Source: Azolla caroliniana
Lineage: Eukaryota > Plantae > Polypodiophyta
DNA: 64,000 bases
Direction of reading: 5' to 3'
Assembly: GCA_043228905.1 (NCBI GenBank)
Contig: JBHGNT010000099.1
Span: forward strand, 1 to 64,000
This document shows, piece by piece, positions 2,796 to 52,504 of the stretch. The notes below the pieces were generated by a model, which searched no databases, was not told the origin of the DNA, and worked only from the letters and a program-made list of their open reading frames with translations. Positions within the stretch are counted from its first letter, which is position 1, and every line of letters starts with the position of its first letter. Made by a program: the position numbers and the translations under genes.

Positions 2796-4536
2796 ACGTT
2801 TATTGAGTCGGGAGGTGACAGGACTACCCACACTTTAGGCGAAAAAAGTAGTGGGGAGCCTCACCTGAAGAGCTACCCTCATGTCGAGTGGACATTAATC
2901 TATACCCAGGACGAAGGAGATTTGCTCCTTATTTTTGTAAAATCTAAAGGTGAGGGCAAGTTGCAGGTGGGGAAGACTTTCACCTACGGCCATGTAAAGA
3001 ACATCGAATACGAAGACAATGACTCATCGAACCTCTTGTTCGATGTTGATAGCTCGATGGGGACGTGCAGACTCAGGATAGATGAACAAAATTTCGTAAC
3101 TGACTCGTGCACCCGAAAGCTTTGAAAAAAGATGTTCAAACCAAAAATAATTTGATTGTTGCTTTCCGCCCTTATATTAAGGGAGAGTTGATGGTCGCAC
3201 AAGCAACCACACCACCAAAGTCTGCCAATAAATCAAAACCGGAGCGTAAGAAGTACAAGAAAAGGCAGCATCCCGAGGACGAGCCCGAGGTACTCGAGTT
3301 CGTGGTAGATGAGGAGGAAGAAATCGTGTTTGATGTTATTCCTCCAGGGGGGGCACATTGCATCAAGAATACTCACCTCAAACCAAAATCAGATCAGAGA
3401 AAACATTGTAAAGATGAAGCTTGTCTATAAAGGAAAACTATTTCACTTGCCCATCTCCTCTATTTAGAGGCCACCCATTGATCCTGAAATAGCAAGACGA
3501 GCTCTAGAAATAAGAGAGAGACATTTAGTGCATGTGAAAAACTTAAAAAGCAAAATGAAGATAAATTCACATGCCACTGTAGTGCCATTCTTAGTAATGG
3601 TAGACCCTAATCAGTGCCCAACTATTGTTGACTTTAAGTACAATTTGGTTGACAACTACACATACTACGTGATTGGAGGATCCCACTCTGCTGAATCTCG
3701 ACGTCAACTTGTGAAGGAGTATCCTCTTACCCCATTCTTCAAATATGCATAATGTAAAGTGTACGTTGGCCTTAGACATGAAGAAGCCAAGTTGTTAGTT
3801 TGGGGTCATAAAAATGATAATGACTACATATATTAGAAGATGTCATGTATGTATCGAGTGCATCAAGTTCTTCCATCACGAGTACCTTGATGCATTGCAA
3901 AAATTTGGTCCTAGGTTGCATCCTGGATTGCAACGACAATGTCTGCTTGAAGTGGGGATAACAGTTGACGAAAGCACTAGGTCTGAAGGCCTAAGGAAAT
4001 ATGACTCGTGGTTTCAACTTGTGTTGAGAACAAGGGAGGTGTGGGACCTCCAAGATCAAATTTTTAGTATGTGGGAGCGGAAAGAAATAAAGGGTCAAAG
4101 ATCAAAGAAGGCTAAGCTCAACCCACAAGTGGAGATGAAGTCTAAGTCACATAAAAGTGACTTAGTAATTGAAAACTTAGCTGAGGATATGAAGCTGCTT
4201 CCTTGGCGGACATTGCAAGGAATCAAAGATGACAGATTATTAATATTTGTATTATCAAGAGTGGTCGTCAAGGAGTTCAGCCTTGATGAAATGGTCACAG
4301 AGTTTCAAAAGTGAGTATTCTATGTGATGACTTATTTTCATTGTATTGTGGGAATAATTTGCTCTTTATAATAACCTTACTTTCTTTTCATTTTTAGCCA
4401 TAAGGTTTATATGAAGATACAAGAGTTGATGATGAAAACATTGTCCTTGCCTACATGGGAAGAGGTGGAGCAATCGTGCCCCAAAACATCATCATACAAG
4501 GCTCTTGAAGAATTCTTCATTGTGTTTAGAGAATGG
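2796..4536 (+). pseudogene. Decayed intron-containing gene with ParB/Srx-like motif, copy 1 (5' truncated)
   Basis: Colinear with 50914-52504. Contains HVKNLKSKM..VVPFLVMVDP..YYVIGGSHSAESRRQL..CKVYVGL..EEAKLLVWGH. GT-AG intron about 4311-4397, next exon ending at a GTATGT donor about 4537. Multiple stops and frameshifts. Confidence 0.65.
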
Positions 4537-4559
4537 GTATGTATGTTGTACAAATATAA

Positions 4560-5110
4560 AACACCACCTAGACCAATATGCCCCATCTCCTCCTCCTTGG
4601 CCATGATTCACATTGCTTGAGGCGAGTCAATCATACAAGAACTTGATTTTGATGGTATAGTCATTGACAAACATATGTTTTTGTTGTATGGACTTCACTT
4701 CTGGTTAGAGTTGAAGTTTTTGTGTGATTGTGTCGATGGATAAAATGTTTCGTGAGGTTCTTCCATGCCCCCTTTTGTTATCTTCACATCTGTGACATAG
4801 CCAATCATATGGTCATAGTATACTTTACATGGCTCACTAGACCATATGATGTAGCATATGGTCTAGTATACATTATGTGGCTCCCAAGCATATGGTCTAA
4901 CAAGGCAAAGCATTAGATGGATCACTCCTTGCTTCCATTCACAATTATATGTATTGATAATGGCAAACATGTTTTGACAATCACCTTCAATGTATCCCCA
5001 ATATGCTTGCCCCAAAAGGTATCGATGGATCTTGTATATCCATGATGCAAAAGTGTTGTGGTATGGAAACTTCTATCCTTGAGGAAAGCTACCCATTTGT
5101 TGATTCGTGC
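4560..5110 (-). mobile_element. Degraded Copia gag relic
   Basis: Minus-strand fragments (YWGYIEG, DHMIGYVTDVKIT, KLQL, VNDYTIKIK) resemble the gag at 31702-32400. Confidence 0.6.
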
Positions 5111-5552: not shown

Positions 5553-6886
5553 ATGTTGGCATGTGTTGAAGACTTATTTCAATGCTTTGAGGCTAGTGTT
5601 CATGCTAAGACAACTGGACCAAGGGAATTTGAACATATTACGGTTGTCGAGGATGAATGTGTGACCAGGTATACAAAGGAACGACTCCTCGCAAACTCAA
5701 GATTGGAATAATTTTTGCCTTGGTTAGTAACTATTTTTTTTGCATGTTCAAGGCATTGATAGTGAAGAGTTTGGAGGTTGGGAGGTCACTGGTTTGACAC
5801 AACATCAATGTGACATATTGTTCTACAGAAGTGACATATTATGATTCCGAGAAAGTTGTAATGTGAGATTAAAATTTGAAACTGTGACCATGGGTATGAT
5901 GTGGAGTATATAACTAACCGAGAGTACGAGGGCAAAGAAAGACTTACCACAAAGCCAATATAGGTAGCTCTAGTACGAGAGAGATTTTAGATATAGATGG
6001 TCATTAGGTTTCACATGAGTTTCATGTGAGTGTGGTGTCCCTAAAGAGTCCCAACCAGACCATGGTTCCGAAGTGAGTCAAGACGGACTCAAGAAGCCCC
6101 AAAACGTATTGGGACTTAGAAAATGCCCAGTCCTAGACATTGCCGCAAAAACAACAACGTCCCAGTCACCAACCACACAGTAGCCTAAAAGCCATCTCTT
6201 GGCCTAACACTAAGGAAGTCCACCAGCCAACCCTTGCAATTAATTTTAGACTCCTCTCCCGAGTATCTCACTCCGTAATCCTCATTAGCTCTAATGATTT
6301 TGTAATAATCTACTTTAGTTTGAGTGTTTTTATTAGTGATCATAACAATGGAGCAGAACATTAGGGTTAGAGTATGGTTGTGGAATTGACATGTAAAGTG
6401 AAGGGAGCTATGCTGGAAAGTAGTGGAATGCTGTAACATATTGAGTTGTGGAATGAGTATACAGATTTGGTTGCTGGATCGCGAATATCGGATTAGAATG
6501 CTCTGTCGTTGTAATTCTATACTCTGTGCATTATTTGGACAAATCTTATTTCGCAGAACTGTTTCTTTTGTAATTTTGCTTCATAGCACTGCAGCCCATT
6601 TCTGTAGTCTTTACATGGTTCCAGCACAAAAAGAAAAAAGAAAAAAGAAAACTGACACAACTTAATAGCTCACGACACAGGCTTAAAATGTACACAACGC
6701 GAGAATTTTCTTAATTAGTAATGATGGTATGTATAAAATACAGTGGAAAAACCATTGTTCCGATACTTTTAATGATCTGTGGGAAGGGGTAAATCAAGGC
6801 TATTATTAATGCAATATGGACAGTGCAACTTATTGATCCTGACCATATACATACATACATACATGTATTATGTATTATGTACATAT

Positions 6887-6922
<36 letters not shown>

Positions 6923-7038
6923 ATCCATCATTATTCTTCATTCATAACAGCCAACGAAATGGCGGCTCAACAGTATATAGTGCAAGAAACACAGACAATA
7001 TTCATAATAATGGTGATGGTGGAGAGGACTAAATCTGA

Positions 7039-10000
7039 CTACAGGCTGAAGCTCACAGAGTGGAAGTGCAGGAGGGCCCCCCTGCTGCCTTCCGAAGATT
7101 TGGATGTGTCCGGGGCAGCATAGAAGGGGCGGAAAGGCGAGCATCTCTTGCATTCCCTGGCAATGTCCTCTTGCATGCTCTCCGATCCCGACACCAGAAC
7201 TCCCACACATTCCCCACGGTGTTGCTCCACCAAGCCCTCGAAGACATCTGCCAATATTTTGGACCATCAAATTTAGAAGAACTACACATTCATTGCTTGA
7301 CATGCTTCATTCTCAGGGGCAATTCATTCATGCATCAATTCAGTGCCATATATAATCCCAAGTCCACTAAAGTATAGCATACATAGCACATTCCTGAGTA
7401 GATGGTTTCAAATAGCTATTGCATGATATTTGAATTAACTAGTGCTTTATTCAGCCAGAGGATGAGATCATTGAGCTAGAAAATTCTGCACAAATAGTAC
7501 TATATATTCGTATATAGTGACTGCAGCTTGAATAGAAGGGATTAAAATTTCAGAATTGGGGTAATCTACCTGTACTCATATATTCACAAACTTGTATATG
7601 TAGTAGTACTACTCTTACCAGGTTAAAGAAGATACCACATATATTCACAAATGCTTATGTTATGAAAACATACTTAACTTTCTTGGCGTAACGAATGCTT
7701 ATGTTTTTTCTTTAACGTTTTTAACCTTTAAAACTTTTTTGCCCTAATAAAAAGTTTAGGGTTTAGGGTTTAGGGTTAGATGTGGACCCTATGATGCCAA
7801 CCTACCTTTCCAGTTTGGCCGTGACAAAATGTGCACATCCCCATCCCACTGAGATGCGCCATCTTCGATTCCGTTGTAAGTTGCTCCCAAATCTTCGTTA
7901 CTTCCGGATGGAGAAGAAGTCGGACTCTGTGTCCTCGGCTGCACCGATGCCGAGCTTATACTCGATTGTCGTCGCAACATATGGAACCATAGCAGAACCA
8001 CGAGGCCGCCACAAATGAGAATCCCCAAGATCATGCACGCCACCACGACATGCGCGCGATTGTAATTGGTGAAGGTGTGATGGGCATAGGACCTCACAAT
8101 AAAAGTGTTTGCCAAGCCTGAAAGCACAAAGTATCCTGCAAAGGATGCAATGGTGGTTAATGCTACCCATGAGGTGCTCCCTGTGCTGCCAATGCTCGAG
8201 ATTCTTCCATCGGATTGTGGGTGTTGTGCCGCCGGATAAGAGGAATCAAATATCAATGGTTGTGATGTAGGGTGTTCACGGTTAAACTTGGATAGGTCCA
8301 AGGATTGGCCTATTCTATATGAATTATGGGCCGTGTTGCCACCGGATAATGGCACTCCCTCATAATCTTGTATGTTCTTCGAGGTTATGTATACATGTAC
8401 TCGGATGCGCAGTCCTAATGTCTCATAGCCAGGGAGAATTTGGTTAGGATATAGGGTGTTTAGCACACATAACTCCTCTGGCTTTCTTATGCAGTGGTAG
8501 AGTGTGATGGAGGTCGGAAGAGTAGTCGATGCCGGTGAGGATCTAACGTCTTTGTATCGATACAAGATATCACGGATTATAGCGAGGGCAGGGGTGAGGC
8601 CTATGCCCCCGGCCACGATGACTAGGGCTTTATACCTGCGAAATATTAATCATGTACATTACATTAATTAATGGAAGCAACTCGTTAATGTGAAGGCTAA
8701 TTATATCAATGAGGAACGACAGACATGAGCTTTGGGAACTGAATCGAGACCAGGAATTACGACAAATAATTAGAGAGATCCCCATACTTTAGGTAGAAAT
8801 CGGACTCATCGCCGTAAGGACCTTCGACTCTAGCCTTAAACGAGAAAGGGCAGGAACCCCCAGTTTTCTTGGCACTTGAGAATTGATCGCGCAAACTATT
8901 CGTCCATTCGCCGAGAGGCTTGATTACGATGGAGAGCTCCTGCGTGTTATCGAGAGGGGACGATGCGCCACTGAAGAAGTGCCACTGTAGTTTGGAGATA
9001 CCAGGAATCTGGATGCACCATGTGGAGAGTGCATTATAGAGTGGGGTCCCTGACATAAGTAATGATCACATTATTGCCTGTTATTAGTAAAGGTTAGAAG
9101 AGCTCACTGACTGAATTTAGTCAGAGAGATTCTGGAATATTAATTAATATGTGAATCCGAACAAGCACACATACATGAAAGAGAATCCATTTATGTTACC
9201 TTTGGTGGCATTGGTGTTAAGAGGCAGCAAGAGCTCGACTGCGCCATTCTGGAGGAGCTTGGCCGAGGATACGCGGACAACACTGGACGATTGGATCATG
9301 CGAAGGAAGCGATCGATGAAGAAGAGCATGAGAGGGACGATGAAGAAATGATAATTCCAGACCGCGTGATACAGCCAAAAGAGGGAGAAGAGGAGATACA
9401 GGTGGTGGACCGAGAAGAATATGTCGTAGAAGCGGCGACGGACGAAGGACAGGGAAGTGGCCCACATGACTAGACCGAACACCCATGCCACCAGCCCGGC
9501 CACTACCGCACATTTTTCTTGCTTCGTGACCCACCCAAAGATCTAACAACAAGAAGCAAAAAACTAATTATGTCCCTATCATGATATGATCAAACACACT
9601 CAAGTACAATGAATGCATCATGATGGAGAAACCACATGAGCCCTAGCATAGGTTGGCCGTTGGGACATCATCCGCGTTAAGCCTTGTAACATTACGGTAA
9701 TATTGGGCGAGACAGTGAGCGCGGAATACTGCATGATTTGAACCTACCAAATCCGTACGGTTGGTGTTGGCATAGAGAATGATGTAGCCGAGGCTATGGA
9801 GGCTGACGAGAACAAGCATGGAGACGGCGAGCCAGATGTGGTAGCGCACGGCGCGCTCGAATGGGATGCCTACCAGCCGAAGCAACGGCGAGCCGCGCGA
9901 CACGGGGATCCAGAGCAACGAGAATGGCACGACGGCCACGCGTCCGAAGTAGAAGGATACATTATTCAATTTCTGCCATGGCCTGCAATATCAATGGAAA

Positions 10001-11028
10001 ACATGAGTGCTTATTATGTACACTCTTGTCACATCTGTTCGAGCTCACGAAGGCCTCCTCGTATATGTGACTGGGAATTTAACAAACAATGTGAGCTTGG
10101 AGATGGTGTTCAAAGCATGAATGTGTGTCTGTCTGTCTGTCTGTCTGTCTGTTTGAGAGAGAGAGAGAGAGATATGGTTATGTCATGATCGTAGTAGGAC
10201 GTACTTGGCGGGGGGCGGGCCGGAGCCGTGGTGGTGCTGGGTGTTGTTGTCGATGCGGGTGAAAGCAATGTTGACGATTCTGCTGAAGTGGTAGATCATC
10301 AACAAAGTTATGGCCAGAATTCCGACAAGCTCCGAGGCCGTGAGGATGCCGAAGGGGCTCTTGTCCACCCACACCGGGTACGTACTCATCTGCCATTGGT
10401 TTTTCCAGCCCTTTGCACCCGCGGGCACCACAACACGGAGCTGTCCAGTCTTTGCTTTGATGAATGCGCGGAGCCGGATCACGACGAAGCTCAGAATGGT
10501 GACGACGAAGAAAGGCATGGTTTGGTATATGAATGTCGAACCTAATGGATGGATGCCATAAATATATCAGTTTTAAGTAGGAGGGAGCTGATCAGTTGAC
10601 AAACCATATATATGCATACACATATGCATTATGCGATCACTAATTATATTATATTACTTGTAGGAGGTGTACTGTAGAGATTTGTCTGGCAGAGATTGAT
10701 AATGAGGGGCTTAGTTACCTTCACGACCATCGGTCCGAAAGAAGCGAGAGTGGGATTTGTCGCCGATCCACGACTCCACGTATTTCTTGTCTCCTTCTGG
10801 ATCGGGCGCGACAAACCACCATAATACCCAAAACACGCACGCGGCCACGATTACCGCTTCCGTGACCGCTTTTGCCACCTTCGCCCGCCGAATTGCCCCC
10901 ATCAATCTCTCATCATCCTCATCTCGGCCATGGACGACCGCCGCAGCCTCCTTACCTGCATCAATCCTCGCGTTAATGCCACAGGATATAAAACTCTGCA
11001 GCCACACGGCAAGGAGGCCAAAATCCAT
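7039..11028 (-). CDS. FRO: Ferric reduction oxidase (FRO/ferric-chelate reductase family), copy 1. Exons 11028-10719, 10541-10205, 9982-9748, 9542-9200, 9049-8788, 8635-7806, 7247-7039 (about 841 aa; start codon uncertain)
   Basis: Ferric-reductase TM domain with four His (RYHIWL, SLHSLG, SVHHLY, LYHAVW), FIDRFLR, LQWH.FS, VEGPYG, AGGIGLTP and C-terminal FHSVSFSL. All introns are GT-AG with consistent phases and the exon total of 2526 nt is divisible by 3. No EF-hands, so not RBOH. Confidence 0.92.
7755..7775 (+). repeat. Three perfect TTTAGGG units in FRO intron 6 (mirror copy 29274-29294)
   Basis: TTTAGGGTTTAGGGTTTAGGG read directly. Confidence 0.9.
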
Positions 11029-11514
11029 CCATAGGAGGCACAAACAACAACAACAACAACAACTGCTACTTCTCCAACATACTCATCGCGAATTAATCGA
11101 GAAGTTAACTGCCGAAAGATGCGCGAAACTCAGTTGATTCTATGTACGGCAATGTTGTTGATCATTAGGGAGAAGAATGAGGAGGGTAATGATGCTCGAG
11201 CAGACAAGCCTTAAACCACACAGATCCTGTTAAGGACAAAAGTGGAGTGTGTTATATATATACATATACTTGCATGATACGGTTGGGTTGACTCTGGAGA
11301 ACAGCTACCCACTAGGTAGTAGTACAACACTGGTACTGCATGGGTTGTACTAATGTGTTAAGTCAACTGGTATTTGCAAAGGGCCTCTCATGTCCCCATA
11401 AAGACAATGCTAAGGACGAAAAATAGATTCAACAAAATATGTATATAAATTCGTTCGTGTGCTGGGCGCTGCCCGGGTCTACCCTTGCACACTTCCCGTC
11501 CCTTCGTGTAAATT

Positions 11515-12722
11515 ACATAATCACAAGAATTGCACCATATTTGTTGGGTATGGAAAATCTCATGGCTACAAGGGTTATCAATTTTACATTGACCTAAATG
11601 TCAAACGATATTTATTTAGTCAATCACCGATGTGCGATGAAGATAGCCTAATATCTCATACATGAAAAGACACAAGCTACAACTACCATACCAAACCCCT
11701 CAAACATCAAATCCAACAAACAATATCATCAACTAGTACTTTTAAATAGGCTCCGCTAGCTTCCTAAAAAATCAAAGTCATAATTGACAACATGCTCATC
11801 GAACATCTTCAATGAATATTCACATCACTAGACGCTCAACCACATATTTCCCCTTTAAGTAATGACTCATCTCTAATAAACAAATAATCATTACAAGGAG
11901 AGCCATATGCTCCAATTACAAATAATAGTAATCTTACCCAAACTAGAAAGATATCTAATCATGATCTAAATATTCATTACGACAAGGGAAAGGAAGTTCT
12001 TAGGAGATCATCAATAAGCCTGGATTGCACTTGAAAAACATGTTGTATTGTACTTAGCCATGCTTTGGTAGATATGTATGCAAAATGTGGTGCAATAATG
12101 AATGTCTATGGCAACCTAAGAGCAGTTGAGAAAAAGTAAAAATCCATGATCAAGTTAAGAATATTTGGAAGTGTCCATCATTGTATCATTTAAATCACTT
12201 TAGACATAATATACACCATTGTTGGAATAAAAAACATTCATAATATACACCTAACTCACCTTGATTATTCATGTTTCCATTCTCGCAAAAGCTCCTTTAT
12301 CCCATTAAGAAGATCGTCACGAGTCTATGGAATAGACCATGACATCAGTAACAAAGGATACCAAAATAATCAAATTACTAGGGTGTACAAATGCCTCTTA
12401 TCCCGTCTAATGGAGAATGCATGGAACATACCAATAATTTTCACATTTTAGCACTAAGAAATTAGATGATCTTTAGTTCACTTTCTTTGCAATTAGCTCC
12501 CGCTCACTTATATCAAACATTCTTGACGATTCAGTCATTATCAATGAGGCAAAACAATGTAGAAAGGAAAGCCATTACGGAAAAAGAACTTGAAACTCTC
12601 TCTTTGTCAACAAAAATGGATTCTAGTACCACTCCTTATAGGCCACTTGCCTATCTCATGCAAAGAAAAAATTATGTAACTCTAATGGTACAATAGTATG
12701 CCATCAAGCTCGGCTAATGGCT
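11515..12722 (+). mobile_element. Highly degraded Copia pol relic (INT C-terminus to RT start) inside the left arm
   Basis: CTIFVGYGKSHGYKGY at 11530-11580, followed by RT-start-like remnants. Inverted homolog of about 22635-23900. Confidence 0.7.
11980..12098 (+). pseudogene. PLS-class PPR motif fragment embedded in the Copia relic
   Basis: DKGKEV...LEKHVVL...ALVDMYAKCGA, frameshifted. Confidence 0.7.
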
Positions 12723-12892
12723 TTAGATTATTAAACACCCTTAATACTTAAATGTTCTTATGTCACTTTAAGATCTTAAGGGTTTTAGATTAATTAAACC
12801 AATTGGATAGATTAAAGAACTTATACTCAAACGAAAAGTTTTTATACTTCAAAACAATATGTCACTTACAAATACAAACAATTATACAAATC

Positions 12893-13470
12893 ACTCTATT
12901 AGGAGGTCTGGAACAAGTTGTTGTCGAAGATCAGCTGGTTGTTGTGTCATATCCGCTTGTTCTGTTTGCTGAGCTCAATCTTGTATTAGTTCAGACTATG
13001 GTACATCCACGAGGTCGACAAGGTCCCCTCCATCTTCATCTATAGGTTCCATCGGTTCTCTAGAGGTCAACTAAAACATCTCAATTTCATTGATATGCCC
13101 ATATACCTTGGATCCTCATTTTAATAAAATTAACTTGTGAGGGGTCTTTCTCCAAGGTGACATAGTTCCGGAACAATTTCAGAAAACATGCGGTCGTTGT
13201 TCCTGAATAAACAATCGTAAATGCGTAAGTAAGAAAACAAAGTCGAGAAAATCAATTTTATATGAAGATAAATTGATCATACTTATAAGAATAGCTGTTC
13301 TAGAGAATAAGTTGAGCACCCAATCATCAGAGTTGGAGAGCAACTCGATCAATTGCTTTATCAAACATTGGGGCTTTTGGTACGGGTTAACTAGACACTT
13401 GTCACCAGAAACATGGCGTAACTTCTTCGTCATAGCTAGGCGCATGATATAATTTACGATGTTTCGTATT
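12893..13470 (-). pseudogene. C-terminal fragment of a beta-class N4C/N6A DNA methyltransferase with a 92-bp intron (13294-13203)
   Basis: The spliced translation reads VNPYQKPQCLIKQLIELLSNSDDWVLNLFSRT/GTTTACFLKLFRNYVTLEKDPSQVNFIKMRIQ. This matches the N6_N4_Mtase pattern HPTQKP..LI...SN.GD.VLDPFxGxGTT......R...G.E.D......RI. The acceptor TTTATTCAG is intact; the donor reads CT and is presumed mutated from GT. Confidence 0.75.
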
Positions 13471-13474
13471 GAAC

Positions 13475-14120
13475 ACCAACGGGCATGAGCGACCATGTGC
13501 AGTCCTCGCCTAGGACTGGATCACGAATACCAACGGGCATGAGTGACCATGTGTGGTCCTCACCGGGAATTGGAACATGAATAGCAGCAGGCATGAGCGA
13601 CCATATCAATCCTCGCCTCGATCTCGAACACAAACAATAGTTGGAGTGAGCGACAATGTACGATCCTCATCGGAGATTGGAACACAAATACCAATGGGTG
13701 TAAGTGAGCATATGCGGTCCTCACAAGGAACACGAAAACCAATGGGAATGAGAGACCATGTCGGTCCTCACGGAGAGATGGAACACGAACACCAACGGGT
13801 GTGAGCGACCACGCGCCCCTCACCGAGAACTAGAACACAAACGGATGTGAGAGACCATGTGGCCCTCACCGAGAACTAAACACGAACAGGCGTAAGCAAC
13901 CATGCGGCCCTCACCAAGAGTTGGATCACGAACGGATGTGAGCGACCATGTGTGGCCCTCATCGGGAACTGGAACGTGAGCGACCATGTGCGGTCCTCAT
14001 CGAAAACATGAACGAGCGTGAGCGACCATGCGGCCCTCATTGAGAACTGGAACATGAATGGACGTGGGCGACCATGCGGCCCTCACTGAGAACTGAACAC
14101 GAACGAACGTGAGCGACCAC
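13475..14120. repeat. Minisatellite, about 14 units of roughly 37-51 bp
   Basis: Recurrent core GAGCGACCATGTGCGGTCCTCA followed by CCGAGAACTGGAACACGAAC-like sequence. Confidence 0.9.
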
Positions 14121-14124
14121 TAAA

Positions 14125-14716
14125 CCCCTCCAACTGGTGCACACAGATATATGTGGTCCTTTGTCTACCCCATCCCTATCTGGAAATGTATATTTCCTAA
14201 CATTTATCGATGACTTTACTCGTTTCACGATGGTCACATTTCTCAAGACAAAATGTAGTGATCAAGTCCTTGAGAAATTCAAAGCCTATCATAAACTTGC
14301 AACAAATCAACAAGATTTACCCCTTAAAGTACTCCAATCAGATAATGGTGGAGAATTCAAGTCCCAAAACTTCCAAACTTATTGCCAAAACCATGGGATT
14401 CAACAATGGTTTACCATCCCATATACACCCCAACACAATTCAAGGGCTGAACGACGAAACCAGTTGTATATGGCTGCCACTCGTTGCATGCTCGCCGTTG
14501 CAAACCTTCCCCGAACATATTGGGAAGAGGTTGTTTCAACCGCTTGTTACATATTCAATAGAACATATAGTCAATCCACTAGGACAACTCCATTTTCCTT
14601 ATGGTTTGGAAAAAATCCTAATTATGAAAATCTAATAATCTTTGCATGTCCATCATATGCACTCGTACCCTTAGAAACTTGATCAAAATTAGATAATCAC
14701 GCCGCTAAAACCATCT
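14125..14716 (+). mobile_element. Copia integrase-core fragment
   Basis: LVHTDICGP...FIDDFTR...LQSDNGGEF...YTPQHNSRAERRN (ORF 14137-14682). Confidence 0.88.
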
Positions 14717-14737
14717 AAAATTTTGCTTAGGGGGGAG

Positions 14738-14917
14738 TGAAGAAAATAATAAGCAAAATAAAGTAAAATAAATTATTATGTAGTTCTTATTTAGTTCCTA
14801 TGAAATCGGTTTCCTTCATGAGAAGGAAACCGTATGTCTATTTGTGGTGGCCTTATAAAGCCACCACCACCAACGTTTGTATGAATGGCATTATACTAAT
14901 AATAAAGTTTCTTTCTG

Positions 14918-14966
<49 letters not shown>

Positions 14967-17900
14967 TTCTATCTCTCTTTCTCTTTCATTTCTACATGGT
15001 ATCAGAGCCTATGCCTATGCCTTTCTAAATTACAAAATACATGCCCTTATCATAAGTTAAGTTTCATGCCCATACAAAAAAAAAAAAAACTATATATTCA
15101 TAGTGTCCAAGATCGTCAAATAACGAACGACAATTTGTGTTTGCCGTGCGCTGATCCGGACAGCCCTCTGCAATAATGGCACAATCTATGTCGTCGTCGC
15201 AACTCAACATGCGAAAGTTCACGATCGAGAAATTGTCGGACACAAATTACCGAATTTGGAAGGCAAGATTAGAATTACTTTTTAAATATAATAAAGTATG
15301 GGACATAATTTCAGGATCGTCGACAAAACCCGAAAAAGGCGAAGAGCTTGAAGAATTTGAAGAAAAAGACTTGTGTGCAAGAATGGAAATTCTAATGCAC
15401 GTAAGTGATGGCACCGGAGAAACATTACGAAAAATGGAGACCGCTCAAGAAATGTGGAAGCACTTACAAACTATCTACGAACCAAAGAATGACGCCCAAC
15501 AAGCACATACACTCCAAGCTCTTGTTAATTACAAGATGATTGACGAACAACCGGTTGGTGATTTTCTATTAATGTGGCAAAAGAAATTAGATGATGTGTT
15601 AACTTCTGGATTGGAAATCCATGATAAATTACAAAAGATTCTCCTTCTTGGTGCTCTTCCTCACTCGTGGTCCACTTTCCGAACCACCCAAAACTCTATA
15701 AATTGCCCAACGCTAATTGATCTTCTTGCAAACATTAGACAGGACGAAACAATGCGTTCACAAAGGTCTTCAAATTCAACTCCAAGTATGGCAATGGTAG
15801 CATATAAGAACAAAAGGTTCACCCAAAGAGGAGAAAGCTCGAAGCCGTGGATAAAGAAAGATCAAAACACTAAACAAGGAGAAATGTGGTTCAACAATAC
15901 CTATTGTAAAATATGCAAACGTACAAATCATGCAACCAAAGATTGTCGCGCAAAGTCAAATTTCAAGAGTTATCAACCATGGAAGCGTGTACAAGCCCAT
16001 CTTGTTGAAGAAGAGATGGATGATGAAAAAGCCATGGGAGGTGGACATCGAAATGGTGACACGTATGACGATGTTCTACAAGCGTTCATTGCCGAATCAC
16101 TTTCCGCCACGATTCCAAATCCAAGTAATGCAAATGACATGTGGTATCTAGACACTGGTGCTACTAACCACTTAACTAATAGAAAAGATTGGTTAAGTAA
16201 TTATAAGGAAGTTGAACCTCCTATCATTGTAAGATTTGGAAATAATGGGACTAAACAAGCTATTGGCAAGGGTAATATTACTTTTGAAGTCACAGGAGGA
16301 AGACATTTCACAATCAATGAAGTTCTCTATGTCCCGGGCATCACCAAACATTTGCTATCGGTTAGCCAAGCAACGGCAAATGGTACAATAATTGAATTTC
16401 ATCCTAACCATGCTATTATTAAACATAAAGCCTCAAATGGAGAACTTATTAGAACATGTTGTAAACGAGAAGGAGGCTTATATCCCATAAAATGTATTCC
16501 TACATCTCTTATTTTAGAAGCACATCATACTACCCCAATACAATCCTCCATATCTTTAACCAATCTTCATTCTCCTTCTTCTCTTTGGCATTTTCGTCTA
16601 GGTCATATGCATTTCAATGCTCTAAAAACACTACAATGTAATAATCTAGTCCATGGTTTGCCAAAAGAACCTTTCAAGCCTATCTCTTTGTGTGAAAGTT
16701 GTATCTTTGGGAAAATGCCCCAACAACCCTTCCCAAAGCATAGATCTAGAGCCACTAACCCTCTTGCATTAGTACATAGTGATCTATGTGGTCCTTTTCC
16801 AACCCCTTCTCTTAGTGGAGCCAAATATTTCATTAGCTTTATCGATGACTTTAGTCGATTTACAATCTTGCATTTTCTCAAGTACAAGAGTCAAGCTTAT
16901 CAAGCATTCAAAGAATACAAGGCTCGAGTCGAAGTGCAAACATCATCAAAGATTAAAAGTCTTCAAACCGATGGTGGTGGTGAGTATGTGTCTCATGAGT
17001 TTCAAAGTTTATATCAAAATGAAGGCATACATCATAGAATATCAACACCACACACACCACAACAAAATTGTGTATCCGAAAGGAAGAATAGATCACTTCT
17101 CAATATGGCTCGAAGTATGTTACAATTTGCTCACTTATCGCCTCAATTTTGGGAGGAAGCGGTTGGCACCGCTTGCTATATTCAAAATCGAGGATTTCAT
17201 AGGTCTTTGGGGCTCCAAACCCCTTATGAATTATGGCATGGTCACAAACCTAACCTAAGTAATCTTCGTATTTTTGGTTGTGATGCTTATGCTTTTGTGC
17301 CAAATGTTCAAAGAAATAAGCTAGATCCAAGGGCTACAAAATCAATCTTCATCGGATATGGAGAAGCTTCGGGATACAAGGCGTACAAGCTCTTCGATCC
17401 ACAAAAACAAAGAATATTCTTTAGTCGTAGTGTGATATTCCAAGAAAATGGGCCTTCTACAAAGGTTTCTTCTTCACTATCTTTTAATCTACCTCCCTTA
17501 TTACCTACCCCTAATTACTTACAACCATATTCCTCAACCATCTCTAATACTAATAGCTCTCATATTGAAGGAGCCAACATTGGCTCATCCTCTACTTCCA
17601 CAATTTGTGTTGCTCTTCCATCTATTCACAAGGCCAAGAACAATCCTACTCAACCAACTAATTCTTCTTCTCATCCTCCCTCATTCCAAACTCTAGATGA
17701 TTCTCTTCCTCATACTCCTTTAAATACACACTATTTAACCCCCACTAATAATACAAATAATGTTATCTTCTCCACTCCCTCTCCTAATCCTTCATTCCAA
17801 GTGTCATCACCAACTTCTCCACCAAACTCTCCACCTCCAAAGTATAGATCTCTAAGTAGTATTTATGAACAACTTGATCAAATGGAAGCACATTTCGTCG

Positions 17901-19078
17901 ACTTGGACCATGAAGCTTATATTCAAGAAGAAGATATTCCAACCCTTGGTGATGACACAAATCTATCGGCCAAAGATGCACTTTCCGGACCGGATTCTAT
18001 CAAATGGAGAAAGGCTATGGAAGAAGAAATGAAGGCTTTACTTAAAAATGGTACGTGGACCCTCGTTGAGCCTCCAAAGGATCGACAAATAATTGGTTCT
18101 AAATGGGTCTTACGCATAAAGCGAGATAGTAATGGCAATCCAATTCGCTTCAAGGCTCGTGTAGTTGCTCGAGGATTCTCTCAAGTACGAGGTATTGATT
18201 TTCAAGATACATTTAGTCCAACGCTAAAAATATGTGGTTTTCGAATGCTCGTTTCTCTTGCCGCACAACATGATCTCGAATTGCATCATTTGGATGTACA
18301 AACGGCTTTTCTTCATGGAGATTTAGATGAAGAACTTTATCTACAACAACCACAATTTTTTGAAGATCCAAGTCATCCAACACATGTTTGTCGACTTCGT
18401 AAATCTATTTACGGTCTTAAACAATCTCCACGCATATGGTATCACAAACTACACTCTTTTCTCATAAAAGTTGGATATCATCGTCTAAACAATGAGCCAA
18501 ATATCTATGTTAGAAAAGCCAAATCCAATTTTGTTATCATAGGTGTCTATGTTGATGATTTGCCTTTGATCTCTAACTCTAAATCTTATCTAGCTATTGC
18601 AAAGAAGGAACTTGCATATGTTTTTCCTATTACCGATTTAGGCCCTATGACCCATTTTCTAGGCATCAAAATAACTCAAGATAGAACAAATCATACTATC
18701 TCATTATCACAATCAAATTATGTTAATTCTATCCTCCAAAGATTTGATATGCTCCATAGTAAACCTATTAGTACTCCTCTTACCTCTCCATGTAAACTTT
18801 CAAATGATGATTCTCCTAAAAATGAACGAGAAATTTCCGAAATGAAGGATGTACCCTATAAGCAAATCCTTGGATGTATAAGATATCTAGTAAGTTGCAC
18901 ACGTCCCGATATTTGCTTTGCCGCCAGTTTTCTTTCTCGTTTCATGGCTAATCCAGGACCAAAGCATTGGATCGCGCTCAAAAGATTACTTCGATACTTG
19001 AAGCATAGTCAACATTATGCGTTGACTTACTCCGCTACACAATCCGAGTCAACCACACTTGTGCAAGGATGGACAAAC
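14738..19078 (+). mobile_element. 3'-truncated Copia element: LTR 14738-14996, iMet PBS 14997-15008, no RNase H or 3' LTR
   Basis: 259-bp TG...CA LTR with TATAAA and a (CT)n tract, then TGGTATCAGAGC. The ORF breaks off at LVQGWT, where the RNase H motif GxxDADW should begin. Confidence 0.88.
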
Positions 19079-19093
19079 CCATATTCGCCATGA
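15176..19093 (+). CDS. Copia gag-pol polyprotein (gag, zinc knuckle, protease, integrase, RT), uninterrupted but lacking RNase H
   Basis: 1305-aa ORF: CKICKRTNHATKDC, WYLDTGA, WHFRLGH..CESC, VHSDLCGP/TDGGGEY/SERKN, RFKARVVARG, YVDDL. Confidence 0.93.
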   Translation: MAQSMSSSQLNMRKFTIEKLSDTNYRIWKARLELLFKYNKVWDIISGSSTKPEKGEELEEFEEKDLCARMEILMHVSDGTGETLRKMETAQEMWKHLQTIYEPKNDAQQAHTLQALVNYKMIDEQPVGDFLLMWQKKLDDVLTSGLEIHDKLQKILLLGALPHSWSTFRTTQNSINCPTLIDLLANIRQDETMRSQRSSNSTPSMAMVAYKNKRFTQRGESSKPWIKKDQNTKQGEMWFNNTYCKICKRTNHATKDCRAKSNFKSYQPWKRVQAHLVEEEMDDEKAMGGGHRNGDTYDDVLQAFIAESLSATIPNPSNANDMWYLDTGATNHLTNRKDWLSNYKEVEPPIIVRFGNNGTKQAIGKGNITFEVTGGRHFTINEVLYVPGITKHLLSVSQATANGTIIEFHPNHAIIKHKASNGELIRTCCKREGGLYPIKCIPTSLILEAHHTTPIQSSISLTNLHSPSSLWHFRLGHMHFNALKTLQCNNLVHGLPKEPFKPISLCESCIFGKMPQQPFPKHRSRATNPLALVHSDLCGPFPTPSLSGAKYFISFIDDFSRFTILHFLKYKSQAYQAFKEYKARVEVQTSSKIKSLQTDGGGEYVSHEFQSLYQNEGIHHRISTPHTPQQNCVSERKNRSLLNMARSMLQFAHLSPQFWEEAVGTACYIQNRGFHRSLGLQTPYELWHGHKPNLSNLRIFGCDAYAFVPNVQRNKLDPRATKSIFIGYGEASGYKAYKLFDPQKQRIFFSRSVIFQENGPSTKVSSSLSFNLPPLLPTPNYLQPYSSTISNTNSSHIEGANIGSSSTSTICVALPSIHKAKNNPTQPTNSSSHPPSFQTLDDSLPHTPLNTHYLTPTNNTNNVIFSTPSPNPSFQVSSPTSPPNSPPPKYRSLSSIYEQLDQMEAHFVDLDHEAYIQEEDIPTLGDDTNLSAKDALSGPDSIKWRKAMEEEMKALLKNGTWTLVEPPKDRQIIGSKWVLRIKRDSNGNPIRFKARVVARGFSQVRGIDFQDTFSPTLKICGFRMLVSLAAQHDLELHHLDVQTAFLHGDLDEELYLQQPQFFEDPSHPTHVCRLRKSIYGLKQSPRIWYHKLHSFLIKVGYHRLNNEPNIYVRKAKSNFVIIGVYVDDLPLISNSKSYLAIAKKELAYVFPITDLGPMTHFLGIKITQDRTNHTISLSQSNYVNSILQRFDMLHSKPISTPLTSPCKLSNDDSPKNEREISEMKDVPYKQILGCIRYLVSCTRPDICFAASFLSRFMANPGPKHWIALKRLLRYLKHSQHYALTYSATQSESTTLVQGWTNPYSP

Positions 19094-21615
19094 TAAATTG
19101 ATGGTTGGACGTCCATGCTACTAGAAAATATTTGATAGAAGATTAACTAGTGATCATTATATGTATGGGAATGAGAAATTAGAAATGAGATGCAACTGAA
19201 TATGAAACATAACGAATCTATTTTTTGACAATTATAAATAGTGCTTTAAAAAAAGTTTAGTTATTCCTTGGAATCAATGTCTATTAAACGTGCCCGTTGC
19301 ATTTCGACTTATAGGTTGCATATGGTTAACACACACTTAGCACATGGGCATTAATTTAATAATGAGAACTTCCAACTCTACATTGAATTATATGTTCACA
19401 AAAAATATCATTTTGAAAGGTACTAGACCTCATCCTATAATTTTTAAATGGTTTATTAGCGTCTATTTTAAAATTCAAATATTTGTATGAATAATGAAAC
19501 TTTTAGCATCTCTCACTTTTACATCATGAAATAATGCCAATGTCACAAACTCAACAATATTTGTGTTCTCTACATCATATTATTGATTGCTCGAGGACCA
19601 TGTATGGAACATTCAAATGGAAATATGTCTTTTTCTAACTACATCTTATATTATTTGCTTACTAAGGGGTGAGATTGAAAGCCCATAGCTAGTCAACACA
19701 TGTATGTTTTGTATGTAGGCACACTTTTGTGCGCCCATAACTATCTTCATGAGTATCGACTCCCAACTTTTATCAAGGTTGAGCATGATATGTGTGATCC
19801 AAGCACACACAATACAAAGATTCATATTATTAATATATATGGCCATATTAATGTTGAGATCTATAATCTCCAACTTAAAACATGTGACTAGTATATGTCA
19901 TGTACCTTGATCTTACACTTGAACTGTGAAGAACTTTAATTAAATTGCAAAACCATGATCTTAAACAAAACAAAAAGGGAAAATCATTTTTATGGCGTGG
20001 CCTCTTGATAAATTTATCTTTTCCTTAGCAATAGAAAGCAAAAAGAGTCAGAGTTTAACTCAAATGAAGTGAAAAAATTCATTTGTAGGTAGAGGAGATG
20101 GGGAATGTAATGCCCTTACGTGGGGTGGGGCATGATAATAATGAGAAAAATAGCATAGATCAGCAATATATTGATGCTCACTTATAAGTTATAAGTTATG
20201 AGATGGTGAAGTATGCCTACACCCTTGGATCTACATCTTCTCTCCTCTTTTCCATCTAGTAGTGCTTCTCATCATTCTCTTTCTAATTTCTTCTCTTAGC
20301 AATGTGGAACTATTTAAATACTATCCAAATACATCCCCTTTTTCATGGTTAAGGAGAAGACCCATTGATCTTGAAGGCTACACTTAGGTTTTTCTTTTTT
20401 CTTATATGATAATAATGTTGCAATACAAATAAAATTCTTTACAATTCTAGTTTGCAGATTTCATGGTGTGTAACATTATATACTAAGTCTAACTCACTTA
20501 TATAAGTTGGGAATATACCCTTATATGCCAATAAAATGAATCTTTATATTGTGTGTGTGTGTGTGTGTGTTTGTTTCGATGACATACAGTCTTGACAATT
20601 AGAAATCAATACTAATTAAGATAGTGGTAGGGTCAAAAACATGTGTATACACAAAGACATACACACGCCACCGAGCCCATTATCTCAAATAGCCTTAGTT
20701 ATTCTGATGTGGAGCCATATGCACTCCTTGTGCAATCAATATGATGGACCAACATGAATGTAATAAGAAGCCCTAGATAGACTTACTAGCATGTGGGCCA
20801 TAATTGTTGTTTCTGCAAGTATTATTCAATGGGTCCATTGCCCGATATCCAATAGGAAACACAAATATATTGTTTGAGTTTGTAGTGGTGTATAGAAAAG
20901 ATTATTACGATTGTTTAATAATCTAAAACCCTTAAGATGTTAATAACATTATTTTAAGAACATTGAATGAGCTTTTTATTTTGAAACGTGGATGTTGCTT
21001 TTCTAACATACATGCTAACTAGCTTTTGTTGAGTGTAGAGTTTGAAGTTTTCATTATTAAATTGATGCTTCTACGCTAAGTGGTGTCTGAAGCAGTTGGG
21101 CCTACAACGGTACCTGTAGATTTCATATACGTACCATACGTGCATTTTGCATTCGAGAATGGTAAACACCCTCGAAGTATGGTAAATACTAAATACCATA
21201 CTTTTGTATTCATTATTATTATAATTTATAAGGTAAAAAATGTAATAAAAAAAACATAAGAATGTTTTGATAACATGCGCATTCGTTTGCTTTTGTATGA
21301 AAAAGAATGTTTGCCAATGCATTCGAGTATATTACGTACTATGGATTTATGAGAAAGAATAACTTTAATTACTGTTGTCTAGCACCACTAACCATTGTTA
21401 TACAAATAGATTCCTTTGATTTGATACATTTGCGTCTCATTCTAAATCTATGATATCTCTAATTAATTCATGCATCAAATAGTTTCTAGCAAACATGAAC
21501 ATTGAACCATCATGCCATTATGTCAACACATGATAGTGTTGAATTGTTGAAAAAATTGCTGCATTGAAAATAACCGTGAGAAAATTTAAATAATATTTAT
21601 ATACATACATATATG

Positions 21616-30010: not shown

Positions 30011-30126
30011 TCAGATTTAGTCCTCTCCACCATCACCATTATTATGAATATTGTCTGTGTTTCTTGCACTATATACTGTTGAGCCGCCATTTCGTTGGCT
30101 GTTATGAATGAAGAATAATGATGGAT

Positions 30127-30168
<42 letters not shown>

Positions 30169-50088: not shown

Positions 50089-50368
50089 CACCTGCTCACA
50101 TATTCATCCTCGACTACTGTAATATTTTTAAATTCCCTTGGTCCAATTGTCTTAGCACAAGAGCAAAGAGCAACCAAGATATCCAGTTTTCGCCTCCCTG
50201 GTCAAGTCGACACCAATATCATCAACATGAACAAGGGAAAGAAGATTGCTAGGTATGTTTTCGGAACTATATTTTTAGATTCTTCAAAGATTCCCAAAAT
50301 ATTCCTTTTTGTGTTTGTTAATTTTTTGTGTCTTGAATACGATGCTTTCAATCGAGTTCTCATAATTT

Positions 50369-50625
50369 CAACGATGGAGTGCATGGAGTTCTCGTTGAAA
50401 GGGGGGAGAACTCGATGCACTGCATCGAGTTTCTGTTGAAAAGGGGGACTTTCAACGAGAACGTGATGCACTCATTGAAAGGGAGGAGAACTTGATGCAG
50501 TGCATTGAGTTCCCATTGAAAGGGTTTTGCTTTCCACGGGAACTCGATGCAGTGTAGCAAGTAGTGTTTCTTTCAATGGAAACTCGATGCACTGCATCGA
50601 CTTCTCGTTGAAAGAGGGGACTTTC
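50369..50625. repeat. Cluster of short palindromic repeats (AACTCGATGCA-N-TGCATCGAGTT) alternating with TTGAAAGGGG motifs
   Basis: Best copies at about 50409-50431 and 50581-50603; degenerate copies at about 50370, 50460, 50489 and 50541. Confidence 0.8.
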
Positions 50626-50889
50626 ATGATCAATATACTAGAATTGGTCACTTTCTTGCTATTTTTTTGCATTTTTCTCAATGTTTTTTTATGTAACATT
50701 ACATTTGAAAATGGGTGATTTTCGCCTACTTTTGCGGAAGTTTACCTTAGTTTTCAGGTTTACGTTGTTTATTTTTAAGATTATTGACATATCATTGTGT
50801 TATTACTTGTTGTTTTTAGTGAATCACGATAGAAGGTCCCATCTGTTAAATTGAAGATTCCTTCCCCAACAAAAAAACCTTCCGACACC

Positions 50890-52504
50890 ATGCCCAAGAA
50901 TGACTCACAGAAAATGTTTATTGAGTTGGGAGGTGATGGGACTTCCCTCACTTTAGGCGAAAAGAGTAGTGGGGAGCCTCGCTTCAAGATCTACCCTCAT
51001 GTCGAGTGGACATTAATCTATACCCAAGACAAAGGAGATTTGCTCCTTATTTTTGCGAAATTTGAAGGTGAGGGCAAGTTGCAAGTGGGGAAGACTTTCA
51101 CCTACAGCCATGTAAAGAATATCGAATTCGAAAACAATGACTCATCGAACCTCTTGTTCGATGTTGATAGCTTGGTGGGGATGCGCAGAGTCAGGATAGA
51201 TGAACAAAATTTCATAAATTAGTCGTGCCACCTGAAAGCTTTGAAAAAGATGTTCAAACCAAAAATAATTTGAGTGTTGCTTTGCGCCCTTATATTAAGG
51301 GAGAACTGATGTTCGCACAAGCAACCACACCACCAAAGTTTGCCAATAAATCAAAATCGGAGCATAAGAAGTACAAGAAAAGGCAGCAGCCCGAGGAGGA
51401 CGAGCCCGAGGTACTCGAGTTCGTGGAAGATGAGGAGGAAGATATTGAGTTCAAAGTTATTCCTCCAGGGGGCCACATTGCATCGGGAATACTCACCTCA
51501 GAGCAAAATCGGATAAGAGAAAACGACAACTATTTCACTTGCCAATCTCCTCTATTCTGAGGCCACCCATTGATCTTGAAACAACAAGACGGACTCTAGA
51601 AATAAGAGAGCCACATTTAGTGCATGTGCAAAACTTAAAAAGAAAAATGAAGATAAATTCACATGCCACTGTAGTGTCATTCCTAGTAATGGTAGACCTT
51701 GATCAGTGCCCAACTGTTGTTGACTTTAAGTATAGTTCAGCTGACAACTACACATACTACATGATTGGAGCATCCCACTCTACTGAAGCTCGACATCAAC
51801 TTGTGAAGGAGTATCCACCTACCCCATTCTTCAAATATGCAAAATGTAAAGTGTACGATGGCCTTAGACATGAAGAAGCCAAGTTGCTAGTTTGGGGTCA
51901 TAACAATGATTATGACTACAAATAAAAGATGTCATGTATCGAGCGCCTCAAGTTCTTCCATCACGAGTACCTTGATGCATTGCAAAAATTTGGTCCTAGG
52001 TTGCATCCTGGATTGCAATGACAATGTCTGCTTGAAGTGGGGATAGCAGTTGACGAAAGCACTAGGTCTAAAGGCCTAAGGAAATATGACTCGTGGTTTC
52101 AACTTGTGTTGAGAACAACGGAGGTGTGGGACCTCCAAGATCAAATTTTTAGTATGTGGGAGCGAAAAGAAATAAAGGGTCAAAGATCAAAGAAGGCTAA
52201 GCTTGACCCACAATTGGAGATGAAGTCTAAGTCACGTAAAAGTGACTTAGTAATTGAAGAACTAGCCGAGGATATGAAGTTGCTTCCTTGGCGGTCATTG
52301 CAAGGAATAAAAGATGACAGATTATTAATATATGTATTATCAAGAGTGGTTGCCAAGGAGTTTAGCCTTGATGAAATGGTCACAGAGTTTCAAAAGTGAG
52401 TATTCTATGTGATGACTTATTTTGATTGTATTGTGGGAATGATTTGCTCTTTATAATAACCTTACTTTCTTTTAATTTTTAGCCATAAGGTTTATGTGAA
52501 GATA
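50890..52504 (+). pseudogene. Decayed intron-containing gene with ParB/Srx-like motif, copy 2 (3' truncated)
   Basis: Runs from MPKNDSQK through LEIREPHLVHVQNLKRKM..FLVMVD..YYMIGASHSTEARHQL..CKVYDGLRHEEAKLLVWGHN to EMVTEFQK, then a GT-AG intron about 52396-52482. Colinear with 2796-4420. Confidence 0.65.

What the first reader, a model, noticed from the sequence alone, without database searches (positions are those of the whole stretch)
12893..13470. Bacterial-type beta-class N4C/N6A DNA methyltransferase fragment with a spliceosomal intron
The match only becomes complete after removing a 92-bp phase-1 intron that splits the SAM-binding FxGxG-TT motif: NPYQKP..LIKQLIELLSNSDDWVLNLFSRT|GTTTACFLKLFRNYVTLEKD..Q..FIKMRI. 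A QKP motif followed by a C-terminal motif I is the beta-class order. Such amino-MTases are typical of prokaryotic restriction-modification systems and phages. Eukaryotic 4mC enzymes of this type are known from bdelloid rotifers and Marchantia. The intron shows eukaryotic residence rather than contamination. This copy is dead: apparent D>N and G>R changes, a mutated donor, and no catalytic (D/S)PPY half.
Basis: partly seen in the sequence, partly recalled or inferred. Interest (0 to 1): 0.82.

Follow-up and report, generated by a model that had tools for sequence, protein, structure and literature searches.

The report
Dead piece of transposon methylase gene
This is the broken tail end of a bacterial-style DNA-methylase gene that a many-copy plant jumping gene (likely Sola type) carries beside its transposase; intact copies would likely bind palindromes in their own DNA and mark it, a design already published for a brown alga, so this stretch is a relic and not a new plant methylation enzyme.

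Summary
On the minus strand, 13466-12891 is the 3' end of a beta-class amino-methyltransferase gene, split in motif I by a 92-bp phase-1 intron; 36 of 38 readable relatives have GT at that site. The copy is dead: mutated donor, 35-bp deletion, stops, neutral decay, no catalytic exon in the window.

It is not a host 4mC writer like DN4MT1 or N4CMT. It is cargo of a multi-copy DNA transposon. Intact relatives (about 7.7 kb, AACAC termini, one 4-bp target duplication, DUF7869 transposase, likely Sola1) carry a spliced ParB-fold plus methyltransferase gene facing away from the transposase. Motif IV is DIPY, which leans to 6mA. dN/dS is about 0.03, and a palindrome array lies in the predicted first intron. 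Named relatives occur in Adiantum and Ginkgo.

Likely mechanism (inferred): ParB binds the palindromes and the enzyme methylates its own element. The same layout is published for Ectocarpus Sola1-1_Ec32, and this scan has already noted the element on other DNA, including other pieces of this genome. Verdict: a real but dead relic, a land-plant member of a known kind. No activity has been shown.

The parts
13295..13466 (-). Remnant of the penultimate exon of the transposon's ParB-MTase gene (motif X region NPYQKP and start of motif I); cut off at its 5' side
   Evidence: 88% DNA identity to L001
13203..13294 (-). 92-bp phase-1 intron splitting motif I; donor reads CT instead of GT, acceptor AG
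   Evidence: GT at the same site in 36 of 38 readable relatives
12891..13202 (-). Last exon (rest of motif I, motifs II-III, acidic tail) with a 35-bp deletion at 13099/13098 and premature stops; natural stop at 12893-12891
12796..12890 (-). 3' untranslated part of the element; homology stops about 735 bp short of the terminal repeat seen in L002 and L040
2792..4560 (+). Second relic of the same gene: decayed ParB-like exon with frameshifts and stops
   Evidence: tblastn E 2e-175 and 87% DNA identity to L002
50227..50252 (+). Predicted short first exon of a third relic, followed by a GT donor
   Evidence: exon inferred from likeness to L003 and L007, no RNA
50340..50600 (.). Decayed palindrome array (CGATGC-N3-GCATCG, 5 matches with up to 2 mismatches) in the predicted first intron of the third relic
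   Evidence: 0-2 matches per shuffled 64-kb window
50815..52504 (+). Decayed ParB-like exon of the third relic, 90% identical to 2792-4419

Best explanation
The stretch is a dead, doubly truncated 3' piece of the accessory gene of a multi-copy plant DNA transposon, likely of the Sola1 group, whose intact copies are predicted to encode a ParB-fold plus beta-class amino-methyltransferase protein that likely binds a palindrome array inside the element and would methylate the element's own DNA, most likely at N6-adenine. Shown: the gene sits inside terminal inverted repeats beside a DUF7869 transposase, keeps its introns and motifs, and is under purifying selection. Predicted from folds: the ParB and beta-class MTase domains. 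Inferred and untested: expression, catalytic activity, 6mA rather than 4mC, palindrome binding, and any benefit such as escape from host silencing. Odds: relic of this transposon gene about 0.93; intact protein is an active MTase about 0.65; full self-marking model about 0.4.
For: 48 related loci, many on high-coverage contigs. Among them 36 of 48 hold the catalytic exon, 25 of 48 the ParB exon and 7 of 48 a transposase. 24 termini in 21 loci, 22 starting AACA, with differing flanks. L028 is a whole 7,724-bp element with a 4-bp target duplication inside a retroelement frame. The D-D-D triad is present in 5 of 5 transposases examined and DUF7869 scores E 1.7e-52. Motif IV reads DIPY in 25 loci and DISY in 1. 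8 of 19 loci tried give an open spliced frame across four introns; dN/dS median is 0.028 (MTase, 5 unsaturated pairs of 28) and 0.023 (ParB, 3 pairs). The MTase model (pTM 0.75) matches CcrM at E 4e-15. The ParB model (pTM 0.49) matches Noc and ParB at E 5e-5, and PadC at Z 9.2, rmsd 2.8 over 100 residues. Palindrome arrays, mostly 40-55 bp apart, occur in 7 loci and in the window. The window copy nests in the 30-row transposon clade (99/99) and decays neutrally against L001 (pN/pS 1.07, against 0.05-0.07 between other loci). Published twin: Sola1-1_Ec32.
Against: The target duplication is seen in only 1 of 3 loci with both ends facing inward; L003 and L022 lack one, probably because those contigs merge copies (inferred). 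High-coverage contigs may be collapsed majority sequences, which favours open frames and low dN/dS. 10 of 19 loci failed my anchors and were not modelled. DIPY is not canonical DPPY, and Ginkgo copies read DIPH, so activity is not assured. The transposase was not compared with any Sola sequence. The ParB model is of modest confidence (mean pLDDT 66). The window fragment itself has neither terminal repeat nor transposase next to it.
Confidence: 0.8

Rival explanations
1. The intact protein is a catalytically dead or weak methyltransferase fold. It would serve the transposon only as a ParB-guided DNA-binding scaffold, for example by controlling the shared promoter or helping pair the ends.
For: Motif IV departs from DPPY (DIPY, DAPY, DIPH). 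Iyer 2016 judges DIRS-borne MTase domains likely inactive (PMC4738411, passage). A preprint states that Streptophyta lack abundant 6mA (10.64898/2026.05.21.726589, passage).
Against: Asp, the second Pro and Tyr of motif IV and the whole of motif I are invariant across the 8 modelled loci although synonymous sites are mostly saturated. dN/dS of the MTase part is as low as that of the ParB part.
Confidence: 0.25
2. The intact enzyme is active but writes 4mC, on the element or on host DNA.
For: The family has switched between 6mA and 4mC repeatedly (PMC8885841, passage). The palindrome has conserved CG dinucleotides. N4CMT and PvuII are also strong fold matches (E 5.5e-12 and 1.7e-10).
Against: N4CMT and DN4MT1 have SPPY, and DPPY marks bacterial N6A enzymes. 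The top fold and sequence matches are N6A enzymes.
Confidence: 0.15
3. The fragment is a pseudogene of a domesticated single-copy host methyltransferase comparable to Marchantia DN4MT1 or rotifer N4CMT.
For: It has a spliceosomal intron, and there is no terminal repeat or transposase beside this copy.
Against: Its near relatives L002 and L040 end in the element's terminal repeat. Three relics lie in this 64-kb window alone. It nests among transposon loci. Ginkgo has 7 and Adiantum at least 4 related gene models.
Confidence: 0.04

Closest known systems
Sola1-1_Ec32 of Ectocarpus (PMC12477816; passages, supplement rows; figures and the element's sequence not seen)
   Same: Sola-type transposase with a ParB-like plus N4C/N6A MTase gene on the opposite strand; 4-bp target duplication biased to end in A; termini starting AAC (AACCG there, AACAC here); the authors propose binding and modification of the element's own DNA.
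   Different: Land-plant host. About 7.7 kb against 21.5 kb. Terminal repeats about 35 bp against 282 bp. A palindrome array in the predicted first intron is not mentioned in the passages I saw. Sequence homology between the two was not tested.
Plavaka accessory genes PAG2 and PAG3 of red algae (10.1101/2025.02.11.637652; passages)
   Same: Transposon-borne PF01555 methylase, a ParB-like protein, and tandem inverted-repeat arrays proposed as ParB sites.
   Different: EnSpm/Plavaka transposase. The methylase is fused to SET and ParB to a 2OG oxygenase, in separate genes; here ParB and MTase are one gene.
Marchantia DN4MT1a/b (10.1101/2021.02.12.428880, passages) and bdelloid N4CMT (PMC8885841, passages)
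   Same: Beta-class amino-MTase of prokaryotic type living in a eukaryote.
   Different: Host genes with SPPY that write 4mC (shown experimentally in those papers). This family has DIPY, a ParB fusion and is mobile. DN4MT1 sequences could not be compared.
Bacterial beta-class N6A MTases CcrM, M.BceJIV, M.RsrI, M.MboIIA (PF01555)
   Same: Fold and motif order.
   Different: Only 14-19% structural-alignment identity. No close prokaryotic donor was found among 84 loci or phage records (best 26-37% over part of the domain).
VANDAL transposons with an anti-silencing accessory protein (known here only from passages of two other papers)
   Same: Accessory protein acting on the element's own sequence to change its methylation state.
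   Different: VANDAL removes 5mC and is a different superfamily; this protein would add a methyl mark.

Membership tests
Beta-class amino-MTase (PF01555), intact family members | Catalytic motif IV lies N-terminal to SAM-binding motif I | tested here: met
   DIPY exon precedes the QKP and FSGTG exons in L003, L028 and others. Pfam E 7.6e-18 (Ginkgo P0019) and 2.6e-12 (Adiantum P0031), above cut-off.
Beta-class amino-MTase (PF01555), intact family members | Canonical (D/N/S)PP(Y/F/W) motif IV | tested here: inconclusive
   DIPY, DAPY or DIPH: first Pro replaced, Asp and second Pro kept. The effect on activity is unknown.
Beta-class amino-MTase (PF01555), intact family members | Beta-class Rossmann fold | tested here: met
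   Model of Adiantum P0024, pTM 0.75; top Foldseek match CcrM E 4.1e-15, TM 0.55.
Beta-class amino-MTase (PF01555), intact family members | Methyl transfer to DNA | not testable with these tools
   No assay available.
Beta-class amino-MTase, the window copy itself | Complete open frame with motif IV | tested here: not met
   No catalytic exon in the window, broken donor, 35-bp deletion, stops.
Eukaryotic 4mC writers (N4CMT, DN4MT1) | SPPY catalytic motif | tested here: not met
   0 of 48 loci gave SPPY with my pattern; 25 gave DIPY. SPPY definition.
Eukaryotic 4mC writers (N4CMT, DN4MT1) | Low-copy host gene outside a transposon | tested here: not met
   Inside terminal repeats, multi-copy.
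Sola (Sola1) DNA transposons | 4-bp target-site duplication | tested here: met
   L028, 1 of 3 loci with both ends. Definition from PMC10741241 passage.
Sola (Sola1) DNA transposons | DDD transposase | tested here: met
   Three conserved Asp motifs in 5 of 5 transposases examined, DUF7869. Their catalytic role is inferred.
Sola (Sola1) DNA transposons | Terminal inverted repeats, 2-9 kb typical size | tested here: met
   34-37 bp repeats in L022 and L003; L028 is 7,724 bp.
Sola (Sola1) DNA transposons | Transposase homology to Repbase Sola1 proteins | not testable with these tools
   No Sola sequence was available to align. The link between DUF7869 and Sola is recalled; a DUF7869 paper search found 0 papers.
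ParB/Srx-fold proteins | ParB N-terminal fold | tested here: met
   Foldseek ranks 1-10 are all ParB or Noc (E 4.8e-5 to 5.1e-4). PadC Z 9.2, rmsd 2.8, 100 aligned. No Pfam, PHROG or NCBIfam ParB hit.
ParB/Srx-fold proteins | Binding to a palindromic site; CTP-dependent clamping | not testable with these tools
   The palindrome array is present; binding is inferred.

The most novel reading that the evidence does not exclude
Ferns and gymnosperms harbour an ancient, still selected Sola transposon lineage that writes its own bacterial-type 6mA mark. A ParB clamp loads at a parS-like palindrome array in the first intron and carries the fused methyltransferase along the element, shielding it from host 5mC silencing. 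It would be a self-addressed epigenetic writer in a lineage thought to lack functional DNA 6mA, and a natural programmable amino-methyltransferase.
Probability: 0.3. Interest if true: 0.75.

Novelty: new member of a known kind. Interest (0 to 1): 0.4.

Why it matters
The window copy does nothing. The family matters in three ways. It extends a transposon design described in algae to land plants. Its strong purifying selection and compact 7.7-kb form, with a candidate binding site, make the untested idea of self-methylating transposons easy to test. It also warns that PF01555 hits in fern and Ginkgo annotations can be transposon cargo, not DN4MT1-like host enzymes.

Tried and rejected
No whole genome is held for the window, so copy number could not be counted.

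A homolog search with the catalytic exon among longer proteins found none of 574 candidates, which is weak evidence. No RNA holder was listed among 14 runs; this is no evidence on expression.

Search for a prokaryotic donor: 4 viral loci and 80 kept of 570 prokaryotic loci match mainly around QKP and motif I; 74 of 84 ORFs have DPPF, mostly one family. The tree covers 92 columns and its deep forks are weak: plant versus prokaryote split 73/86, with one prokaryotic row on the plant side. I claim no donor and no single origin. That tree used 29 of 48 loci and 11 of 84 prokaryotic or viral ORFs.

The transposase has no useful PDB sequence match and was not folded. CpG observed/expected as a sign of protection from 5mC was uninformative: intact elements 0.58-1.25, window retroelements 0.71-1.0; the two ParB relics are lower at 0.52-0.55.

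Window 404-516 looked like an element end. It is the empty host repeat that flanks L003, so I rejected it. The idea that 2792-4560 and the finding are two halves of one broken copy fits their equal 88% identity to L001 but cannot be decided.

Summed contig depth over the fragment is roughly 80-230 times that of the contig identical to the window. The tool warns this is no copy number, so I use it only as a hint. No listed contig bridges the 13466/13471 junction.

Not found in print for land plants in searches. The library lacks most subscription journals and Repbase Reports. The original Sola paper was not held. The 2011 chapter cited for green-algal cases, the journal version of the Marchantia paper and bioRxiv supplements were not seen and may bear on novelty.

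Full report
OBSERVATION. On the minus strand an exon runs 13466-13295, a 92-bp phase-1 intron 13294-13203 (donor CT, acceptor AG), and a last exon from 13202 to a stop at 12893-12891. Pfam N6_N4_Mtase hits the first exon weakly (E 0.0058). Splicing in a script raises the score against a profile of 84 prokaryotic and viral MTase ORFs from 21.4 to 49.1 bits, with 3.1 the best of 200 shuffles (that set was chosen with patterns from this family). The intron site is real: 36 of the 38 related loci in which the anchor was found, out of 48, have GT there. Against L002 the window copy shows D>N, G>R, the donor change, a 35-bp deletion and stops. Against its nearest relative L001 it has pN/pS 1.07 over 57 codons, where other pairs of loci give 0.05-0.07. 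Contigs identical or nearly so to 12635-13039 occur in runs of three studies, so the 3' junction is genuine DNA; one of them may be the window's own source.

WHAT IT BELONGS TO. A scan of metagenome contigs gave 48 loci from 92 pattern matches, with coverage labels up to 143x against about 2x for others. Of the 48, 36 hold the upstream catalytic exon, 25 a large upstream exon and 7 a transposase. In L003, L007, L026 and L028 an intronless transposase frame of about 870-900 codons faces away from the methyltransferase gene. It matches DUF7869 (E 1.7e-52) and has three conserved Asp motifs (5 of 5 examined). Terminal repeats of 34-37 bp close L003 and L022. 24 termini in 21 loci were recovered, 22 beginning AACA, with different flanks. 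L028 is a whole 7,724-bp element with a 4-bp target duplication, inserted in a retroelement reading frame. L003 and L022 show no duplication; I infer they merge different copies. A 4-bp duplication and a DDD transposase define Sola (PMC10741241, passage). I could not align to a Sola sequence, so 'Sola1' is likely, not proven.

THE CARGO GENE. Four introns in the 3' part sit at the same places in the loci examined; a short first exon and first intron are inferred from sequence only. 8 of 19 loci tried give an open spliced frame, 1 is cut by its contig end, and 10 failed my anchors (one acceptor there was misplaced by a codon and corrected). dN/dS is 0.028 (median of 5 unsaturated pairs of 28, maximum 0.084) for the MTase part and 0.023 (3 pairs) for the upstream part; the other pairs are saturated or too close at synonymous sites. 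Collapsed contigs may exaggerate this. Motif IV reads DIPY in 25 loci and DISY in 1; 10 more loci with the exon were not read by my pattern and 12 lack it. The model of the Adiantum relative P0024 (pTM 0.75) matches CcrM, M.BceJIV and M.RsrI best, with N4CMT and PvuII close behind. The upstream exon folds like ParB or Noc (pTM 0.49; Foldseek ranks 1-10 all ParB/Noc; PadC Z 9.2, rmsd 2.8 over 100 residues), though no profile library names it; the Atlas gave DUF3723 and ParB_N as leads. A palindrome, CGATGC-N3-GCATCG, recurs mostly 40-55 bp apart in the predicted first intron of 7 loci. Named relatives are 4 gene models of the fern Adiantum nelumboides (DAPY) and 7 of Ginkgo (DIPH where present); I did not see their genomic context. 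The window's own taxon was not determined; a land plant, probably a fern, is inferred.

THE WINDOW. It holds three relics of the gene: the finding, a ParB exon at 2792-4560, and a 5' part at 50227-52504 with five decayed palindromes at 50340-50600. Neither the catalytic exon nor a transposase was found. The finding has lost its 5' part at 13466 and about 735 bp with the terminal repeat beyond 12796. It lies among copia-type debris. On a 92-column tree it falls in the 30-row transposon clade (99/99) next to L001 (81/90).

MECHANISM. Shown: a mobile, selected, spliced gene beside a transposase, with a palindrome array. Predicted: ParB and beta-class MTase folds. Inferred: the ParB half binds the array (ParB proteins bind tandem inverted repeats; passage) and brings the MTase to its own element. 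An Asp-led motif IV leans to 6mA (PMC8885841, passage), but the family switches product often. The benefit to the element, perhaps keeping the shared promoter active against host 5mC, is a guess. Rivals are a catalytically dead scaffold (0.25), a 4mC writer (0.15) and a host-gene pseudogene (0.04).

WHAT IS KNOWN. Sola1-1_Ec32 of Ectocarpus carries a 1104-aa ParB-like plus N4C/N6A MTase gene opposite its transposase, and the authors propose self-binding and self-modification (PMC12477816, passages). Its supplement lists AACCG termini, a 4-bp duplication and a Physcomitrium Sola1 transposase as best hit (rows). Red-algal Plavaka elements carry a PF01555 gene and a ParB gene with inverted-repeat arrays (10.1101/2025.02.11.637652, passages). 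DAM-type enzymes in retrotransposons are surveyed in 10.64898/2026.05.21.726589 (first part and passages), with no occurrence of PF01555. Iyer 2016 (PMC4738411, passages) lists ParB-linked MTases in chlorophytes and haptophytes. PMC4455052 and PMC5751038 (passages) gave only classification context. Nine searches found no land-plant report, within a library that lacks most subscription journals. Earlier notes of this scan describe the same element in this genome and others. I had reached the transposon reading before seeing them. They led me to the Ectocarpus paper and to test the palindromes, both of which I checked here.

VERDICT. A real feature, a dead relic, and a land-plant member of a design already known from algae. 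Interest 0.4. It would rise to about 0.75 if intact copies are shown to methylate their own DNA.

Noticed in passing
window 6544-11514 and 25492-30504: A 5-kb inverted duplication, 98% identical, of a ferric-reductase-like gene (Ferric_reduct and NAD_binding_6 hits), enclosing the finding and a copia element.
   Followed up: partly
window 13471-14119: A tandem array of 38-54 bp units directly upstream of a copia integrase fragment; relatives are very abundant in the runs laid. It abuts the 5' break of the finding.
   Followed up: partly
window 14113-19093: Integrase fragment, purine tract and a probable LTR followed at once by a copia frame open for 1312 codons; may be a tandem structure sharing one LTR (LTR read by eye).
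   Followed up: partly
window 11509-12723 and 22634-23909: An inverted 86% duplicate of copia debris holding a short PPR-like fragment near 12030-12200 (motif recalled, not tested).
   Followed up: no
L023 4040-6332: One element end abuts the middle of a transposase gene of the same family, suggesting insertion of one copy into another or an assembly fold.
   Followed up: no
L022 506-6549: An internally deleted element (transposase kept, ParB exon shortened, MTase exons kept) with both terminal repeats.
   Followed up: no
L040 1419-1846 and window 19140-19560; L003 7774-7870 and window 404-503: Flanks of related elements match repeats in this window at 94-96%, suggesting the loci come from the same or a close plant species.
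   Followed up: partly
window 52685-53756 and 54380-56129: A 284-bp tandem repeat (3.6 copies) and a 716-bp-period direct duplication, unexplained.
   Followed up: no
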